Position numbers and translations under genes: made by a program. DNA of 7,528 bases from a virus (taxonomy: Duplodnaviria > Heunggongvirae > Uroviricota > Caudoviricetes). The stretch lies in IMG/VR virus record IMGVR_UViG_2534681703_000021, one strand, 5' to 3'. The notes below the pieces were generated by a model. The model saw only the letters and a program-made list of their open reading frames with translations. It did not search any database and was not told the origin of the DNA. Of this stretch, positions 1 to 7,528 are shown piece by piece; the first letter of the stretch is position 1, and each line of letters opens with the position of its first letter.

Positions 1-144
1 TTAATTTCGATTATTTTTCCCGTATGGAAAATTCTTAGAAACCGATCACATACAGCTGCATTTATTAAGGTTATCATCCGTTTCGCTGAAAAACATAACC
101 CATAAAATGCTAGCTGTACCAGGAACCACCTCCTTAGCCTGTGT

Positions 145-171
145 AATCTCCCTTACACGGGCTTATTTTTT
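145..171. other. P2-type phage attachment-site core (attR core if prophage)
   Basis: Minus-strand reading of 145-171 is AAAAAATAAGCCCGTGTAAGGGAGATT, which matches the 27-bp P2 att core as I remember it; it sits just beyond ogr and its terminator, where attP/attR lies in P2. The core sequence is recalled, not verified. Confidence 0.55.
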
Positions 172-2229: not shown

Positions 2230-4677
2230 TTAACCGTCATGCATCATGCTGGCACGGGCGCGCGCACGTTTATCCCGCTCGTATTTTTCGAGCGCATCCT
2301 GTAACTGGCGGTCAAGCTGTGTCCCCGGCGCAGTACCACCCGTCAGGCTGATGTGATATTCGTTTTTACTCTGGTCTACATAAGAGCGGCCAGCCGGTGC
2401 CGTGACCGGCTGATAAGCCTGATAGCCTGCATAAGAGCTGGTCGCCGGAATATAACCACCGCTGCCATACGTGGCGGCTTGAGTTCTGGCGGCGGTCTGA
2501 TCAAGTGTGTCTGACTCTTTGTTGATAACACCGAGTTTTTCCAGTACCCAGTCAATACCGCTGCGCAGTTTGTTGAACGCATTAAGCGGCAGCATCAGCG
2601 CGTCAGCCAGTGCCTGCCCGAACATGACGCCCGTGTCACGGCAACGGTTCAGGGTGTCCTGGGTGGCTTTGACCGGGGCAATCAGGTTTTTAAACCACTG
2701 CCACGCGGCCTGTAACTTTTCGCCCAGCCAGTCAAACACCGGTTTCAGTGGCGAGAACAGCTCCCCCACCGGCGCAAATGCTGCTTTCAGCCCTTCAACC
2801 ACACCACCAAAGAATGCGCTGACAGGCTCCCAGTATTTACGGATAAGCAACGCCCCGGCGACAATGGCGGCCACCACAGCCACAATCGGCCAGCTAATCG
2901 CCCCGATGGCCGTCATAACAGCACTGCCAACCGTCGTGAAGATTGCCCCCATTGCGCCTGCTGCCGCGATGATGGCATTAATGCCGGTGATAACCGGCCA
3001 GGCTACAAGACCAATTGCACCGATGATGCCAATAAGCGCCAGTGCGCCACCGACAATAAGGCCGATGGTTGACGCCAGTGATTTGTTTTTCTGGATCCAG
3101 CCGTCGAGTTTTAACACATACTTTGTGGCCGTCTGCGTGAGATTACGCAGTGCGCCTTCCTGTTGGTCAAACAGGTCAGTCCCCACCGCCTCATAAGCAG
3201 ACTGAAACTCCTTAAAGTCACCGCCGAGGTTATCCTGCATGATTTTAACCAGCTCTTCCGTTTTACCGTCCGAGGCTTTCAGCGTGGCGGTCAGCTTATC
3301 CAGTTTTCCGCTTGCAGCCGCTGCCAGTAAAACGTTCGCTGATTTCAGGGCTTCCTCACCAAAAATGGTTTTAAGGTATTCCCCCTTCTGAGACGTTCCC
3401 AGCTTGTGTTTATCAAAGCTGGCCTGAATCTCTTTCAGAATGGTGAACAACGGACGCATATTTCCCTTTTTGTCCGAGGTTTTAACGCCAAGCTCTTTGA
3501 GTGCTTCCCATGCTTTCCCTGTCGGAGCCTGTAATCGGGTGACAACGGCACTACTACCAGTACCCGCCATTGACCCCCTGATGTTATTGTCATGCAGCAC
3601 ACCTGTCATGGCCGCTGCCTGCTCAAGACTTACACCCGCCGTCCTCGCAACCGGCCCGAGGTAAGTCAGTGCATCACTGAGCCCCTGAAAATCAGCCGCC
3701 GACTTATTCATCGTTGCCGACAACACGTCGCCCACATGGCTGACATCATCATTTGACAGTTGAAAGGATGCCTTAGTCCCCAGCAACAGTTGCGCGTTTT
3801 CTTCCATCGACCGCTGATTCGCCAGTGCCATATTCAGCGTGACCGGCGTTGCCGCCTGAATAGCCGCAGCATCTCCACCCGCTTTCGCGATGATTATCTG
3901 TGCACCGGCCGCATCATCCGCCGAGGCGGCGGTATTGTCGCCGAGCTGGCGCGCCTGTTTGCGTAGTGCGGTCATTTCGGCGGAGTCTTTTGCCACTCCG
4001 AGCACGGCCTGCAATTCTGAGTTTTTCTGCGCAAACTCATAACCGGGCATCAGCAACTTAACTCCGGCCATCGTTCCCGCCGCCGCAATCCCCACACCGG
4101 CAGCGCCTACTGAGGCCATATTTCCGGCCAGTTCCTTTCCGGCCTGATAACGCTGTTTGACTGCGTTAAGTTTTGCCTGTTGCGCACTGACACGCGCCAG
4201 CGCGTCGCGCTGCCGGTTAAGCTGTGCGGTGGTTTCACTGATACGGTTTTTCAGTCCCTGCTCATCATGTGCAAGATTGCGGGTATTAATTCCCACAGCG
4301 GCCAGTTCCCGCTGCTGGCGTTTAACGGAATCCGTCAGGCGGTTATATTTCGCCTGTAAGTCCTCCGCCGCACGCTTTGCGGATTCCAGCACTTTCGCCT
4401 GAGCACGGGTCGGACGTTCGGTGTTTTTAAACTGTGTGGCAAGGGCTTCGGCTTCCTGCCGAGCCTTTTCAAGTGCATGACCAGTCACGGCGAGCTGTGC
4501 ACTGGTCTTGCGAAATCCCTCAATACGGGATGCCTGACCGTTCAGCTCGCGCAGTGATTTTTGTGTTTCCCGGATATCCCCCGACAGCGATTTGCTCGCT
4601 GTACGGATGGATTTAAACGGGCGGGATGCCTGGTCAACAGCCCTGAGCAATACCTGTAATTTTACATTGTTACTCAT
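2230..4677 (-). CDS. T: Tail tape measure protein (P2 gpT-like), 815 aa
   Basis: 815-aa ORF with a coiled-coil-like N-terminal region (many Q/R/E/A/L heptad-like stretches), a long Gly/Ala/Ile-rich hydrophobic segment, and a C-terminal domain; positioned after E/E' as in all long-tailed phages; length equals P2 T as I recall. Confidence 0.9.
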   Translation of the reverse strand: MSNNVKLQVLLRAVDQASRPFKSIRTASKSLSGDIRETQKSLRELNGQASRIEGFRKTSAQLAVTGHALEKARQEAEALATQFKNTERPTRAQAKVLESAKRAAEDLQAKYNRLTDSVKRQQRELAAVGINTRNLAHDEQGLKNRISETTAQLNRQRDALARVSAQQAKLNAVKQRYQAGKELAGNMASVGAAGVGIAAAGTMAGVKLLMPGYEFAQKNSELQAVLGVAKDSAEMTALRKQARQLGDNTAASADDAAGAQIIIAKAGGDAAAIQAATPVTLNMALANQRSMEENAQLLLGTKASFQLSNDDVSHVGDVLSATMNKSAADFQGLSDALTYLGPVARTAGVSLEQAAAMTGVLHDNNIRGSMAGTGSSAVVTRLQAPTGKAWEALKELGVKTSDKKGNMRPLFTILKEIQASFDKHKLGTSQKGEYLKTIFGEEALKSANVLLAAAASGKLDKLTATLKASDGKTEELVKIMQDNLGGDFKEFQSAYEAVGTDLFDQQEGALRNLTQTATKYVLKLDGWIQKNKSLASTIGLIVGGALALIGIIGAIGLVAWPVITGINAIIAAAGAMGAIFTTVGSAVMTAIGAISWPIVAVVAAIVAGALLIRKYWEPVSAFFGGVVEGLKAAFAPVGELFSPLKPVFDWLGEKLQAAWQWFKNLIAPVKATQDTLNRCRDTGVMFGQALADALMLPLNAFNKLRSGIDWVLEKLGVINKESDTLDQTAARTQAATYGSGGYIPATSSYAGYQAYQPVTAPAGRSYVDQSKNEYHISLTGGTAPGTQLDRQLQDALEKYERDKRARARASMMHDG

Positions 4678-5097
4678 TCGTGTTTCCGCTTCGCCGGAGC
4701 GCCTTTTCGCGCCATGTGATGAGTTCGGTCAGGCTCATGGGATACAGTTCTGATGGCGGCCAGTGAAATATCACTGCCACATCCGCCATCAGGTCATCGA
4801 CCGAGAGATTTTTCGGAAACGTCACTGCACCGAGTTCGGCGACAAAAAACCGACCACCTTACCGGCCAGCGCCACAAGGTCAGGCAGTTCCAGCGCGGCG
4901 ACTTCCTGCTCGGTCAGCATCGGTGCCGTCATGCGCGGCAGCACTTTAATCAGTGCATCGACTTCGGAGTTCGCGACTGCAGCCAGACTGACACCGCGCA
5001 GCGTCCCGGCATTGGGTTTCATCAGCGTGACCTGTTCGATAACCTGCTCACCACGTTTGACCGGATTGTCCAGGGTAATGACGTTTTCTTTGTTCAT
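4670..5097 (-). CDS. E': Tail assembly chaperone E+E', -1 programmed frameshift fusion, predicted 142 aa
   Basis: Hand translation: zero frame to the F-L codons, then a -1 slip on TTTTTTG (4849..4843) continues as VAELGAVTFPKNLSVDDLMADVAVIFHWPPSELYPMSLTELITWREKALRRSGNTNE to TAA at 4672..4670. That is 85 + 57 = 142 aa, the size I recall for P2 E+E'. The stop overlaps the tape-measure start by 8 nt. Confidence 0.75.
4822..5097 (-). CDS. E: Tail assembly chaperone E (P2 gpE-like), 91 aa, zero-frame product
   Basis: 91-aa ORF between tube and tape measure, the conserved position of tail chaperones; ends ...KVVGFLSPNSVQ with the slippery heptamer T-TTT-TTG spanning the F-L codons. Confidence 0.85.
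   Translation of the reverse strand: MNKENVITLDNPVKRGEQVIEQVTLMKPNAGTLRGVSLAAVANSEVDALIKVLPRMTAPMLTEQEVAALELPDLVALAGKVVGFLSPNSVQ
4843..4849 (-). other. Slippery heptamer T TTT TTG (recoding signal for the -1 frameshift)
   Basis: Minus-strand sequence GG-TTTTTT-G read in zero frame as GGT TTT TTG; a canonical X XXY YYZ -1 site located 7 codons before the E stop. Confidence 0.8.
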
Positions 5098-5125
5098 GGT
5101 TTTCTCACTTCTGAATCGGGGTTAA

Positions 5126-5146
5126 CCGGTCAGCCAGGCTGACCGG
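5126..5146 (-). promoter_or_regulatory. GC-rich RNA hairpin in the tube-E intergenic region (possible attenuator or processing/stability element)
   Basis: CCGGTCAG (5126-5133) pairs with CTGACCGG (5139-5146) around a 5-nt loop; 7 nt after the FII stop and about 28 nt before the E start. On the mRNA it is followed by UUAACCCC, so there is no U-tract. Confidence 0.4.
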
Positions 5147-5153
5147 ATGAAAA

Positions 5154-5672
5154 TCACAGGCCGATATTGCGGCGGTGTTGCTCCAGCCGGTCGACGCCGT
5201 TCACCTTCTCAATCATGTTGATGGTGTCGATTTCGACCAGCTCCTTACCGTCCATCGTCAGCCGGAAATAGGTGCAGACCACGGAGATTTTCGACTCGGT
5301 GTCTTCTCCCTGTTTGCCCTCGCCGGTGTCGATTTCTTTCTGACGTCCACGCATGACCACCTCGACGGCCACCGTTTCGCCGGTATCGTCGCGCTGGTAA
5401 GAGCCTGCAAAACGAATCGGTACGGCATCCACACCGGTTGCGGCGTAAAGCTCCCAGATAACCGAATCCGGGAAGCCACCGAGCGACCACTCCATTGACA
5501 GCGCATCGTCATCAAGGCCGAGGTCTACCGGTGCGCTGCCGTTCATCCCCGCACCGCGATAGTTTTCGAGCTTACGGGTCAGTTTTGGTAGCGTGACGGA
5601 CTTCGCGACGCCCTGATAGCTGTAGCCGTTCAGAAAGACGTTCATTAACTTGAGTTTGCGCGGCATTGCCAT
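5154..5672 (-). CDS. FII: Tail tube protein (P2 gpFII-like), 172 aa
   Basis: 172-aa ORF (MAMPRKLKLMNVFLNGYSYQG...), same length as P2 FII as I recall; 12-nt gap after the sheath stop containing a GGAG Shine-Dalgarno; conserved sheath-tube order. Confidence 0.9.
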   Translation of the reverse strand: MAMPRKLKLMNVFLNGYSYQGVAKSVTLPKLTRKLENYRGAGMNGSAPVDLGLDDDALSMEWSLGGFPDSVIWELYAATGVDAVPIRFAGSYQRDDTGETVAVEVVMRGRQKEIDTGEGKQGEDTESKISVVCTYFRLTMDGKELVEIDTINMIEKVNGVDRLEQHRRNIGL

Positions 5673-6875: not shown

Positions 6876-6990
6876 CCGTTTAACTCCGTGGTTAATGGGT
6901 GAGTGGTATTTTCAGTTGTGCCGGAGATGTCAGGCTATTTGTCCCGGTTGGCTAAGGGATGACACAATTTATTCTTTGTCGCTGATGAGG
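6876..6990 (-). promoter_or_regulatory. Region expected to hold the Ogr-dependent late promoter for the FI operon (P_F); contains dyad GACA-N12-TGTC at 6961-6980
   Basis: Only 59 bp separate the invertase stop from the FI start, so the promoter must overlap the invertase 3' end. The perfect 4-bp dyad with a 12-bp spacer is centred about 95 bp upstream of the FI ATG. It is not the TGT-N12-ACA arrangement I recall for P2/P4 late promoters, and no convincing -10 was found. Confidence 0.25.
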
Positions 6991-7528
6991 GAAATTTTTT
7001 ATAGAGCGTGGACAGGCCAATATCAAAAATCAGCGCCACACGTTGACGAGATTCCCCCGCAGCCAGCAACCGTCCGACCTGCTCCCACTCACTCGTGGTG
7101 AGTTTCGGTCGTCTGCCACCAATACGACCTTTGGCTCTGGCTGCTTCCAGTCCGGCGCGTGTCCGCTCGACAATGAGTTCTCGTTCCATTTCAGCCAGGG
7201 CACCCATCACATGAAAGAAAAAACGCCCCATCGGCGTGCTGGTATCAATGGCATCCGTCAGGCTGCGAAAATTAATGCCGCGTTCGCGCAGCTCCTCAAC
7301 CAGAATGACCAGATGCCGCATACTACGCCCCAGCCGGTCCAGCTTCCAGACCACCAGTGTATCCCCCTCCGATAATGTCCTGAGCAGTTTTTTCAGTCCC
7401 GGCCTGTCGGACTTCGTGCCGCTGATTTTGTCCTCAAAAATCAGCTCACATCCTGCGCACTCCAGCGCGTTACGCTGCAATTCCGTGTTCTGGTCATTTG
7501 TTGACACGCGTACATAGCCAATAAGCAT
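6935..7528 (-). CDS. Serine recombinase, DNA invertase (Gin/Pin/Cin/Hin family), 197 aa, complete
   Basis: N-terminus MLIGYVRVSTNDQNTELQRNAL with the catalytic Ser in VRVSTNDQ; resolvase/invertase core motifs (GDTLVVWKLDRLGRS, MGRFFFHVMGALAEMERELI); C-terminal HTH (GRRPKLT...LSTLYKKFP). The ATG is the last three bases of the window (7526-7528), so promoter and RBS lie outside. TAG stop at 6935-6937. Confidence 0.9.
   Translation of the reverse strand: MLIGYVRVSTNDQNTELQRNALECAGCELIFEDKISGTKSDRPGLKKLLRTLSEGDTLVVWKLDRLGRSMRHLVILVEELRERGINFRSLTDAIDTSTPMGRFFFHVMGALAEMERELIVERTRAGLEAARAKGRIGGRRPKLTTSEWEQVGRLLAAGESRQRVALIFDIGLSTLYKKFPSSATKNKLCHPLANRDK

What the first reader, a model, noticed from the sequence alone, without database searches (positions are those of the whole stretch)
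4670..5097. Programmed -1 ribosomal frameshift generating E+E' on a T TTT TTG slippery heptamer
The E ORF carries a canonical slippery heptamer 7 codons before its stop. A -1 slip gives a 57-residue extension in the only frame open across 4670-4843, ending 8 nt inside the tape-measure gene. The predicted 142-aa fusion reproduces the conserved chaperone frameshift found upstream of tape-measure genes (lambda G/GT, P2 E/E'). The six-frame track and automated callers miss it.
Basis: partly seen in the sequence, partly recalled or inferred. Interest (0 to 1): 0.5.

Follow-up and report, generated by a model that had tools for sequence, protein, structure and literature searches.

The report
Known P2 tail-chaperone E/E+E' frameshift
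This is the well-known programmed -1 ribosomal frameshift that makes the tail assembly protein E+E' of phage P2, sitting in a P2-type prophage almost identical to P2 itself.

Summary
On the minus strand, gene E (5097-4822, 91 aa) carries an in-frame T TTT TTG heptamer (4849-4843) whose last codon is followed by 6 sense codons and then the stop. A -1 slip opens a 57-codon extension that ends at 4670, 8 nt inside tape-measure gene T. The result is a 142-aa fusion.

The fusion is 141/142 identical to P2 gpE+E' (AAD03292.1 / UniProt O64312). The DNA is identical to P2 from 4944 to 4670. The P2 GenBank record annotates the joined CDS and a "site of -1 translational frameshift" at the homologous coordinates.

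Conservation is strong:
- 80/80 close relatives keep the heptamer.
- 24/25 loci found through E alone (52-95% aa identity) keep T TTT TTN.
- 15/15 distant Peduoviridae keep an in-frame X XXY YYZ heptamer feeding an E'-like -1 ORF.
- Synonymous sites inside the heptamer are frozen.
- Codon periodicity switches to the -1 frame after the E stop.
- 19/25 sequences (the window plus 24 of those loci) have no start codon for E'.

I found no canonical stimulator 5-9 nt downstream.

Verdict: already known, low interest. Automated annotation (PGAP) does split it into two genes. Side notes: a conserved RNA hairpin 51 nt downstream, an SD-like AAGGTG 5 nt upstream, the CyaR sRNA and a DNA invertase.

The parts
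4822..5097 (-). Gene E: tail assembly chaperone, 91 aa, the zero-frame product (stop TGA 4824-4822)
   Evidence: ORF list and translation. Pfam PF10109 Phage_TAC_7, E 2.6e-12. Homologous to the P2 E CDS. This exact 91-aa protein occurs on 1000 or more contigs as 'phage tail assembly protein'.
4843..4849 (-). Slippery heptamer T TTT TTG (P-site TTT 4848-4846, A-site TTG 4845-4843)
   Evidence: Sequence. In frame as X XXY YYZ. The P2 record marks the 'site of -1 translational frameshift' at the base homologous to 4842. Conserved in 80/80 close relatives, 24/25 mid-range loci and 12/15 distant relatives, with three other X XXY YYZ heptamers in the remaining distant ones. Synonymous sites are invariant.
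4670..4843 (-). E' segment: 57 codons in the -1 frame plus stop TAA 4672-4670. It is reached only by frameshifting from E.
   Evidence: Translation. Pfam PF06528 Phage_P2_GpE, E 1.2e-21. 57/57 identical to P2 E'. Third-position diversity peaks in the -1 frame after the E stop. 19/25 sequences (window plus 24 related loci) have no start codon for it.
4670..5097 (-). Full E+E' coding unit (142-aa fusion, join at the heptamer)
   Evidence: Same extent as the joined P2 E+E' CDS in AF063097. 141/142 aa identical to it.
2230..4677 (-). Gene T, tail tape measure protein, 815 aa. Its ATG (4677-4675) lies 8 nt inside E' (ATGAGTAA overlap).
   Evidence: ORF list. Pfam PF10145. The 8-nt overlap is kept in 21 of 22 scored related loci and 79/80 close relatives.
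5154..5672 (-). Gene FII, tail tube protein, upstream neighbour
   Evidence: Pfam PF04985 Phage_tube, E 2.3e-60.
4750..4792 (-). Stable RNA hairpin inside the E' coding sequence, 51 nt 3' of the heptamer. Its role is unknown and it is not established as part of the frameshift signal.
   Evidence: The 46-nt stretch 4795-4750 folds at -24.0 kcal/mol, z -4.29 against dinucleotide shuffles, and z about -3 against synonymous recodings. 96.7% of cells are paired in 24 sequences, with one compensatory pair. It is absent in distant Peduoviridae.
4855..4860 (-). Shine-Dalgarno-like AAGGTG, ending 5 nt 5' of the heptamer. Its role is unknown.
   Evidence: Sequence. The third positions of its AAG and GTG codons have diversity 0 and 0.083. 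They are two of only 4 low-diversity sites among 76 degenerate third positions in E. The spacing lies outside the 9-14 nt reported for -1 stimulators (PMC5009743).

Best explanation
The window carries the FI-FII-E-T-U-D-ogr tail operon of a P2-type prophage. Most ribosomes translating E terminate at TGA 4824-4822 and make the 91-aa chaperone gpE. A minority slip back one base when tRNA-Phe (P site, UUU) and tRNA-Leu (A site, UUG) sit on U UUU UUG. Both re-pair with UUU in the -1 frame, and translation continues through 57 further codons to give the 142-aa gpE+E'. That product ends 8 nt inside T.

By analogy with lambda G/GT, the shared E part would bind the tape measure protein and the E' part would recruit the tail tube protein. 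The fixed slip frequency would set the E:E+E' ratio needed for tail assembly.

Shown here: the sequence anatomy, near-identity to P2, and purifying selection on the heptamer and on the -1 frame. Taken from the literature: that the P2 site really frameshifts and that both products are essential. Inferred: the binding roles, and any coupling of T translation to E' termination.
For: - P2's curated record annotates the joined E+E' CDS and the frameshift site at exactly homologous coordinates.
- The fusion is 141/142 aa identical to P2's. The DNA is identical to P2 from 4944 to 4670, which covers the heptamer and all downstream sequence.
- The reconstructed P2 junction GFL-VAELG matches AAD03292.1/O64312 exactly.
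- Pfam finds Phage_TAC_7 plus Phage_P2_GpE on the fusion.
- The genes lie between tail tube FII and tape measure T.
- Among loci found through E alone, 24/25 keep T TTT TTN at the same place, with an open -1 ORF of 57-62 aa.
- 80/80 IMG/VR relatives keep the heptamer.
- 15/15 distant Peduoviridae (35-71% E identity) have an in-frame X XXY YYZ heptamer leading into an E'-like -1 ORF. Two of them use A AAT TTT and G GGA AAG, which have no long homopolymer run.
- The three synonymous sites in GGT-TTT-TTG have diversity 0, 0 and 0.083, against a mean of 0.487 for 76 other degenerate third positions, of which only 2 are invariant.
- Codon-position diversity is 0.174/0.078/0.462 in frame 0 upstream of the heptamer, and 0.119/0.081/0.356 in the -1 frame after the E stop.
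- 19/25 sequences (window plus 24 related loci) have no ATG/GTG/TTG from which E' could start.
- Literature: P2 frameshifts at TTTTTTG and gives 91-aa and 142-aa products (PMC3091744). The lambda G/GT mechanism, and the 2-3-fold higher efficiency in P2-like phages, are reviewed in PMC5009743.
Against: - Nothing in the data contradicts this explanation.
- No frameshift product was measured for this particular prophage.
- No canonical 3' stimulator is present. The first 43-60 nt downstream fold no better than shuffles (z -0.41 and -0.63), and the small proximal hairpin has no covariation support.
- The SD-like motif is 5 nt upstream rather than 9-14 nt, so the efficiency cannot be predicted from sequence.
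- The primary paper (Christie et al. 2002) could not be read. The experimental basis is therefore cited second-hand.
Confidence: 0.96

Rival explanations
1. E' is a separate small gene, translated on its own from GTG 4825-4823 as a 51-aa 'GpE family' protein, as PGAP and many phage records annotate it.
For: A GTG-start 51-aa ORF exists at 4825-4670. PGAP annotates it as its own CDS. That exact 51-aa sequence is recorded on about 995 contigs.
Against: This GTG is present only in the window and one other locus (L026). In other relatives the codon is GTA or something else. 19/25 sequences (window plus 24 related loci) have no start codon at all in the -1 frame between the upstream stop and the conserved DDLMAD motif. 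The -1 frame stays open and coding right from the heptamer in all of them. There is no convincing SD before the GTG. P2's curated record gives the fusion.
Confidence: 0.02
2. The frame change occurs in the mRNA rather than on the ribosome. RNA polymerase stutters on the T6 run and adds one U, so normal translation of the edited mRNA gives an E-E' fusion with junction GFFVAELG.
For: The site is a homopolymer run of six T. Transcriptional slippage is a known route to the same kind of product (PMC5009743).
Against: Per the review, slippage in bacteria is described for runs of about 9 A or T; this run has six. The seventh base is conserved (G in 22/24 mid-range loci, and 12/15 distant phages have TTTTTTG). 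The heptamer is always in the X XXY YYZ register. Two distant relatives use A AAT TTT and G GGA AAG, which have no long homopolymer but are classic tandem-slip sites. The deposited P2 protein has Leu, not Phe, at the junction, although that is an annotation choice.
Confidence: 0.02
3. The arrangement is a chance heptamer plus a chance open frame, or a frameshift mutation or sequencing error that split a once-continuous gene.
For: The bare heptamer occurs as often as expected by chance in the window: 2 found, 2.06 expected.
Against: The same split arrangement is present in more than 115 independent loci across several phage genera and host classes. Synonymous sites in the heptamer are frozen. 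Both frames show coding periodicity.
Confidence: 0.003

Closest known systems
Bacteriophage P2 gpE / gpE+E' (genes E and E+E', AF063097 / NC_001895; UniProt O64312 TAPFS_BPP2)
   Same: Same genes, same order (FII-E-E'-T), same heptamer, same 91-aa and 142-aa products and same 8-nt overlap with T. 141/142 aa identical. DNA is 98.2% identical over 561 nt, and identical from the heptamer region to the E' stop.
   Different: One substitution (N29 here, S29 in P2). The host prophage differs elsewhere, for example a DNA invertase next to FI where P2 has Z/fun (the P2 gene order is from my own knowledge).
Phage 186 orf51/orf52 (gene H) and other Peduoviridae E/E' pairs (KS14, Mana, phiE202, PSP3 and others)
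   Same: T TTT TTG in frame near the end of the E homologue, and a -1 ORF with the conserved ..ADIA.(I/V)F.W.P.. motif running into the tape measure gene.
   Different: 35-71% E identity. The distance from the heptamer to the E stop varies from 2 to 22 codons. The hairpin in E' is shared with 186 and the Yersinia phage vB_YenM_201.16 but not with the more distant genera.
Lambda G / GT tail assembly chaperone frameshift (Levin et al. 1993; Xu, Hendrix and Duda 2004, 2013, 2014)
   Same: Same position between the major tail and tape measure genes. A low-level -1 frameshift near the end of the first ORF gives two products with a common N-terminus that act in a fixed ratio and are absent from virions (PMC5009743).
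   Different: There is no detectable sequence-family relationship: only PF10109 and PF06528 hit at E up to 0.01. The slippery site differs (G GGA AAG in lambda, from my own knowledge). P2-type efficiency is reported as 2-3-fold higher. The tail is contractile rather than non-contractile.
E. coli dnaX -1 frameshift cassette (A AAA AAG with a 5' SD and a 3' stem-loop)
   Same: A tandem-slip X XXY YYZ heptamer decoded by E. coli ribosomes.
   Different: dnaX has an SD 9-14 nt upstream and a stem-loop a few nt downstream. Here the SD-like AAGGTG ends only 5 nt upstream. No supported structure lies within about 45 nt downstream.

Membership tests
P2-type (Peduoviridae) gpE / gpE+E' tail assembly chaperone frameshift | Zero-frame ORF homologous to gpE (Pfam PF10109 Phage_TAC_7) | tested here: met
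   47 bits against a cutoff of 25, residues 7-85. 90/91 aa identical to P2 gpE.
P2-type (Peduoviridae) gpE / gpE+E' tail assembly chaperone frameshift | -1 frame extension homologous to E' (Pfam PF06528 Phage_P2_GpE) | tested here: met
   76.3 bits against a cutoff of 23, residues 104-139 of the fusion. 57/57 identical to P2 E'.
P2-type (Peduoviridae) gpE / gpE+E' tail assembly chaperone frameshift | In-frame TTTTTTG (X XXY YYZ) slippery heptamer near the 3' end of E | tested here: met
   4849-4843, register GG[T TTT TTG], with TTG followed by 6 sense codons and the stop. The P2 frameshift site annotation maps onto it.
P2-type (Peduoviridae) gpE / gpE+E' tail assembly chaperone frameshift | Position between the tail tube gene (FII) and the tape measure gene (T), with E' ending at or inside T | tested here: met
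   FII is 5672-5154 and T is 4677-2230. The E' stop at 4672-4670 gives an 8-nt overlap.
P2-type (Peduoviridae) gpE / gpE+E' tail assembly chaperone frameshift | Heptamer and -1 ORF conserved in relatives under purifying selection | tested here: met
   Conserved in 80/80, 24/25 and 15/15 loci. Synonymous sites are frozen. Periodicity switches frame.
P2-type (Peduoviridae) gpE / gpE+E' tail assembly chaperone frameshift | Both the 91-aa and the 142-aa proteins are actually made, and both are needed for tail assembly | not testable with these tools
   Reported for P2 (Christie et al. 2002, as cited in PMC3091744; the GenBank note reads 'essential tail protein'). Not measured for this prophage.
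Lambda G/GT family (sequence membership) | Sequence homology to lambda gpG / gpT Pfam families | tested here: not met
   A Pfam scan of the fusion at E up to 0.01 returned only PF10109 and PF06528. The relationship to lambda G/GT is one of position and mechanism, not of detectable sequence.
dnaX-type stimulated -1 frameshift cassette | SD-like element 9-14 nt 5' of the heptamer, and a stable stem-loop starting a few nt 3' of it | tested here: not met
   The SD-like AAGGTG ends 5 nt upstream. The 43- and 60-nt downstream folds have z -0.41 and -0.63. The proximal 5-bp hairpin is no better than shuffles, with 9/24 outer pairs broken.

The most novel reading that the evidence does not exclude
The only element here that is possibly undescribed is the stable hairpin inside the E' coding sequence (4792-4750, 51 nt 3' of the slip site). 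It is conserved across the P2/186 clade, is more stable than synonymous recodings allow, and has one compensatory pair. The SD-like AAGGTG 5 nt upstream also has frozen synonymous sites.

One or both could be non-canonical modulators. They might tune the frameshift frequency, or control the fate of the mRNA segment that only frameshifted ribosomes traverse, and hence the translation of T. Published screens looked only 60 nt downstream and reported no structure (PMC3091744).
Probability: 0.12. Interest if true: 0.35.

Novelty: already known. Interest (0 to 1): 0.06.

Why it matters
Scientifically it adds nothing new. The site is the textbook P2 E/E+E' recoding event in a prophage 98% identical to P2.

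Its practical value is for annotation. PGAP and many phage submissions split the unit into 'phage tail assembly protein' and a spurious GTG-start 51-aa 'GpE family phage tail protein'. The fusion protein of this allele is absent from a collection of 15 billion proteins, while its two halves each occur on about 1000 contigs. The correct annotation is a joined CDS with ribosomal slippage at 4843.

Tried and rejected
- **Primary paper.** Christie et al. 2002 (by DOI and as PMC135442) is not held. I used PMC3091744 and PMC5009743 instead.
- **Solved structures.** A PDB sequence search with the fusion gave no hit at E up to 1.
- **Rfam.** No frameshift element or other RNA family lies in the E/E' region. 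The only hit in the window is CyaR.
- **Canonical 3' stimulator.** The 5-bp hairpin CGCCG/CGGUG, which starts 2 nt after the heptamer, was considered and rejected. The fold is not better than shuffles, there is no covariation, and the outer pairs are broken in 9/24 sequences.
- **Alignment-wide fold around the heptamer.** It pairs the U-run through G-U pairs and has a weak covariation term of -0.74. The matching 'terminator-like' hit at 4870-4849 is within shuffle expectation. I rejected it as a signal.
- **IMG/VR scan.** The scan with an E alignment returned only 99-100% identical relatives. That was useful for close-relative integrity but not for depth, so I sampled distant phages by tblastn instead.
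- **L027.** This Enterobacter sp. EA-1 locus has T5 instead of T6 but also other frame breaks in E. I treated it as assembly error or decay, not as a counter-example.
- **Correction to my notebook.** The checkpoint note says 18/25 sequences lack a start codon. The recount gives 19/25.
Full report
**1. What is in the sequence**

All the genes of the window run on the minus strand and form the P2 late tail operon:
- Ogr/Delta zinc-finger gene, 554/491-273
- D, 1736-573
- U, 2215-1736
- T, the tape measure gene, 4677-2230 (PF10145)
- E, 5097-4822 (PF10109)
- FII, the tail tube gene, 5672-5154 (PF04985)
- FI, the sheath gene, 6875-5685
- a serine recombinase, 7528-6935

In the E frame the sequence reads ...AAG GTG GTC GG[T TTT TTG] TCG CCG AAC TCG GTG CAG TGA. 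The heptamer occupies 4849-4843, and TTG is codon 85. Reading on from G4843 in the -1 frame gives VAELGAVTFPKNLSVDDLMADVAVIFHWPPSELYPMSLTELITWREKALRRSGNTNE. That is 57 codons, ending at TAA 4672-4670.

T starts at ATG 4677, so E' ends 8 nt inside T. The fusion is 85 + 57 = 142 aa. Of the six frames, only this one is open across 4670-4849.

**2. Is it more than chance?**

The bare heptamer is not. TTTTTTG occurs twice in the window, and 2.06 are expected.

The configuration is. There are six in-frame X XXY YYZ heptamers in the eight genes. Only this one sits near the end of its gene and opens a -1 frame that runs past the gene's own stop. That frame is 57 codons long; the other five run into a -1 stop within 8-18 codons.

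**3. Identity with P2**

The 561-nt region matches 74 phage records at 95% identity or more. These include Peduovirus P22H1 (100%) and phage P2 itself (98.2%).

The P2 GenBank record AF063097 annotates four features there:
- E
- a two-piece joined CDS E+E' ([quoted passage not shown])
- a misc_feature "site of -1 translational frameshift"
- T

Mapped to the window, these are 5097-4822, 5097-4670, 4842 and 4677 onward.

The window and P2 differ at 7 of 428 nt, all between 5083 and 4945. From 4944 to 4670 they are identical. The fusions differ only at residue 29, N here and S in P2.

My reconstruction of the P2 fusion with junction GFL-VAELG is exactly AAD03292.1 / NP_046780.1 / UniProt O64312 "Tail assembly protein E'". 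The alternative junction GFL-F is not in the collection. Pfam places Phage_TAC_7 on residues 7-85 and Phage_P2_GpE on residues 104-139 of the fusion.

**4. Comparative tests**

I collected relatives through the E protein alone, so the E' frame and the heptamer were not part of the search.

*(a) Close relatives.* All 80 IMG/VR loci (99-100% E identity) have TTTTTTG followed by 6 sense codons and the E stop. Of these, 79/80 give a 142-aa fusion. The exception contains an ambiguous stretch.

*(b) One genome per species (GTDB).* There are 25 informative loci at 52-95% E identity, from Enterobacter, Kosakonia, Scandinavium, Citrobacter, Yersinia, Serratia, Ewingella and an alphaproteobacterium.
- 22 have T TTT TTG, one has T TTT TTA and one has T TTT TTC, all in the same register.
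- The -1 ORFs are 57-62 codons long.
- In the 22 loci scored, the overlap with T is 8 nt in 21 and 11 nt in one.
- The one exception, L027, has T5 plus further frame breaks inside E. It is probably assembly error or decay.

*(c) Fifteen distant Peduoviridae.* These are at 35-71% E identity and include 186, KS14, phiE202, Mana, and Ralstonia, Halomonas, Klebsiella, Salmonella, Mannheimia and Aeromonas phages.
- 12 have T TTT TTG.
- The others have A AAT TTT, G GGA AAG and T TTT TTC.
- Each heptamer is in frame and leads into a -1 ORF with the E' motif.

*(d) Synonymous sites.* The three synonymous sites in GGT-TTT-TTG have nucleotide diversity 0, 0 and 0.083. The 76 other degenerate third positions of E average 0.487, and only two of them are invariant.

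*(e) Codon periodicity.* Codon-position diversity is 0.174/0.078/0.462 in frame 0 upstream of the heptamer. After the E stop it is 0.119/0.081/0.356 in the -1 frame. E' is therefore a translated sequence under purifying selection.

*(f) Start codons.* In 19 of 25 sequences (the window plus 24 of the loci in (b)) there is no ATG, GTG or TTG in the -1 frame between the nearest upstream -1 stop and the conserved DDLMAD motif. The GTG at 4825 that PGAP uses as a start exists only in the window and in L026. E' can be expressed only by a frame change from E.

**5. Mechanism**

The shown facts fit the classical tandem slip. tRNA-Phe on UUU in the P site and tRNA-Leu on UUG in the A site both re-pair with UUU one base back. 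The next codon read is then GUC.

The alternative non-homopolymeric heptamers in distant relatives (A AAT TTT, G GGA AAG) argue for ribosomal slippage over transcriptional slippage. So do the conserved register and the conserved seventh base. The review describes transcriptional slippage in bacteria for runs of about 9 A or T.

From the literature:
- In P2 the -1 shift at TTTTTTG gives the 91-aa E and the 142-aa E+E' (PMC3091744, citing Christie et al. 2002 and Xu et al. 2004).
- In lambda the analogous G and GT proteins bind the tape measure protein. The T part recruits the major tail protein, the ratio matters, and neither protein is in the virion.
- In P2-like phages the efficiency is 2-3-fold higher than in lambda (PMC5009743).

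The binding roles for E and E' are inferred by analogy. The strictly conserved ATGAGTAA overlap suggests that T initiation is coupled to E' termination, but that too is inference.

**6. Stimulators**

None is supported.
- The first 43 and 60 nt fold no better than shuffles (z -0.41 and -0.63).
- A 5-bp hairpin starts 2 nt after the heptamer. It shows no covariation, and its outer pairs are broken in 9/24 sequences.

This agrees with the reported absence of a structure in P2.

Two things did stand out.

The first is a hairpin at 4792-4750, CUGAUGGCG...CGCCAUCAG with an inner GUGAUA/UUUCAC stem.
- The 46-nt stretch containing it folds at -24.0 kcal/mol, z -4.29 against shuffles.
- It is about 3 SD more stable than random synonymous recodings of the same peptide. 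This holds in most members of the P2/186 clade.
- 96.7% of cells are paired across 24 sequences.
- One G-C to C-G/U-G compensatory change pairs a P-to-G amino-acid change with a synonymous change.
- It is not conserved in more distant genera.
- It starts 51 nt from the slip site, which is too far to touch a ribosome sitting on the heptamer.

The relatives are phylogenetically non-independent, so this is suggestive only.

The second is the SD-like AAGGTG at 4860-4855. It carries two of the only four low-diversity synonymous sites in E. It ends 5 nt from the heptamer, whereas -1 stimulators act at 9-14 nt and +1 stimulators at 3 nt. Distant relatives lack it.

**7. Annotation**

PGAP annotates the homologous E. 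coli locus as two CDSs: "phage tail assembly protein" and a 51-aa "GpE family phage tail protein". Many phage records do the same. Curated records join them.

The window's exact 142-aa fusion is absent from the 15-billion-protein collection. Its 91-aa and 51-aa pieces each occur on about 1000 contigs.

**8. Verdict**

The feature is an orthologous copy of an experimentally characterised recoding site. It is already known and of low interest. The residual novelty lies only in the possible distal hairpin and the SD-like element, which I rate at about 12% to be functional modulators.

Noticed in passing
window 83-168 (+): A full-length CyaR/RyeE sRNA gene (Rfam RF00112, 100.7 bits against a gathering score of 47) lies just outside the prophage end, next to ogr. 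In the matching E. coli locus the neighbours are yegQ and ogrK. The prophage therefore sits at the cyaR/yegQ site.
   Followed up: partly
window 6935-7528 (-), running to the window edge: A serine recombinase (Resolvase plus HTH_7 domains) lies next to the sheath gene FI. It is about 96% identical to genes annotated 'DNA invertase' in phage pro483 and a P2-like O157:H43 phage. In the matching E. coli locus, tail-fibre and fibre-assembly fragments lie on both strands just beyond it. This suggests an invertible tail-fibre host-range switch that P2 itself lacks.
   Followed up: partly
window 4750-4792 (-): A stable RNA hairpin inside the E' coding sequence, 51 nt downstream of the slippery site. 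The 46-nt stretch containing it folds at -24 kcal/mol, z -4.3 against shuffles and about -3 against synonymous recodings. 96.7% of cells are paired in 24 relatives, with one compensatory pair. It is conserved in the P2/186 clade only. Function unknown.
   Followed up: partly
window 4855-4860 (-): A Shine-Dalgarno-like AAGGTG (AAGGTGAT in some relatives, a perfect anti-SD match) ends 5 nt before the heptamer. Its two synonymous sites are among only 4 of 76 low-diversity third positions in E. The spacing fits neither the -1 range (9-14 nt) nor the +1 value (3 nt) for known stimulators.
   Followed up: partly
window 5123-5143 (-), between FII and E: A perfect inverted repeat, CCGGTCAGC-CTG-GCTGACCGG, lies in the FII-E spacer. 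Phage 186 has an annotated 'tI; partial terminator of pJ transcript' in the same spacer. It may lower transcription of E-T-U-D relative to the abundant sheath and tube genes.
   Followed up: no
window 4849-4870 (-): The consensus scan flags a G-U-rich 8-bp hairpin followed by the T run of the heptamer as terminator-like. The count is within shuffle expectation: 2 overlapping hits against 0.8 +/- 0.8. The alignment fold pairs the same region weakly.
   Followed up: partly
L027 (Enterobacter sp. EA-1, CP025776.1) 1440-1960: The E homologue has T5 instead of T6 at the slip site, which would fuse E and E' in frame. It also has other frame breaks within E. This is most likely homopolymer assembly error or a decaying prophage.
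   Followed up: no
L118 (OR820920.1, 'Bacillus phage vB_BpuM-ZY1'): A phage recorded with a Bacillus pumilus host carries a Peduoviridae E/E'/T module nearly identical in arrangement and sequence to that of a Halomonas phage. The host assignment looks doubtful.
   Followed up: no
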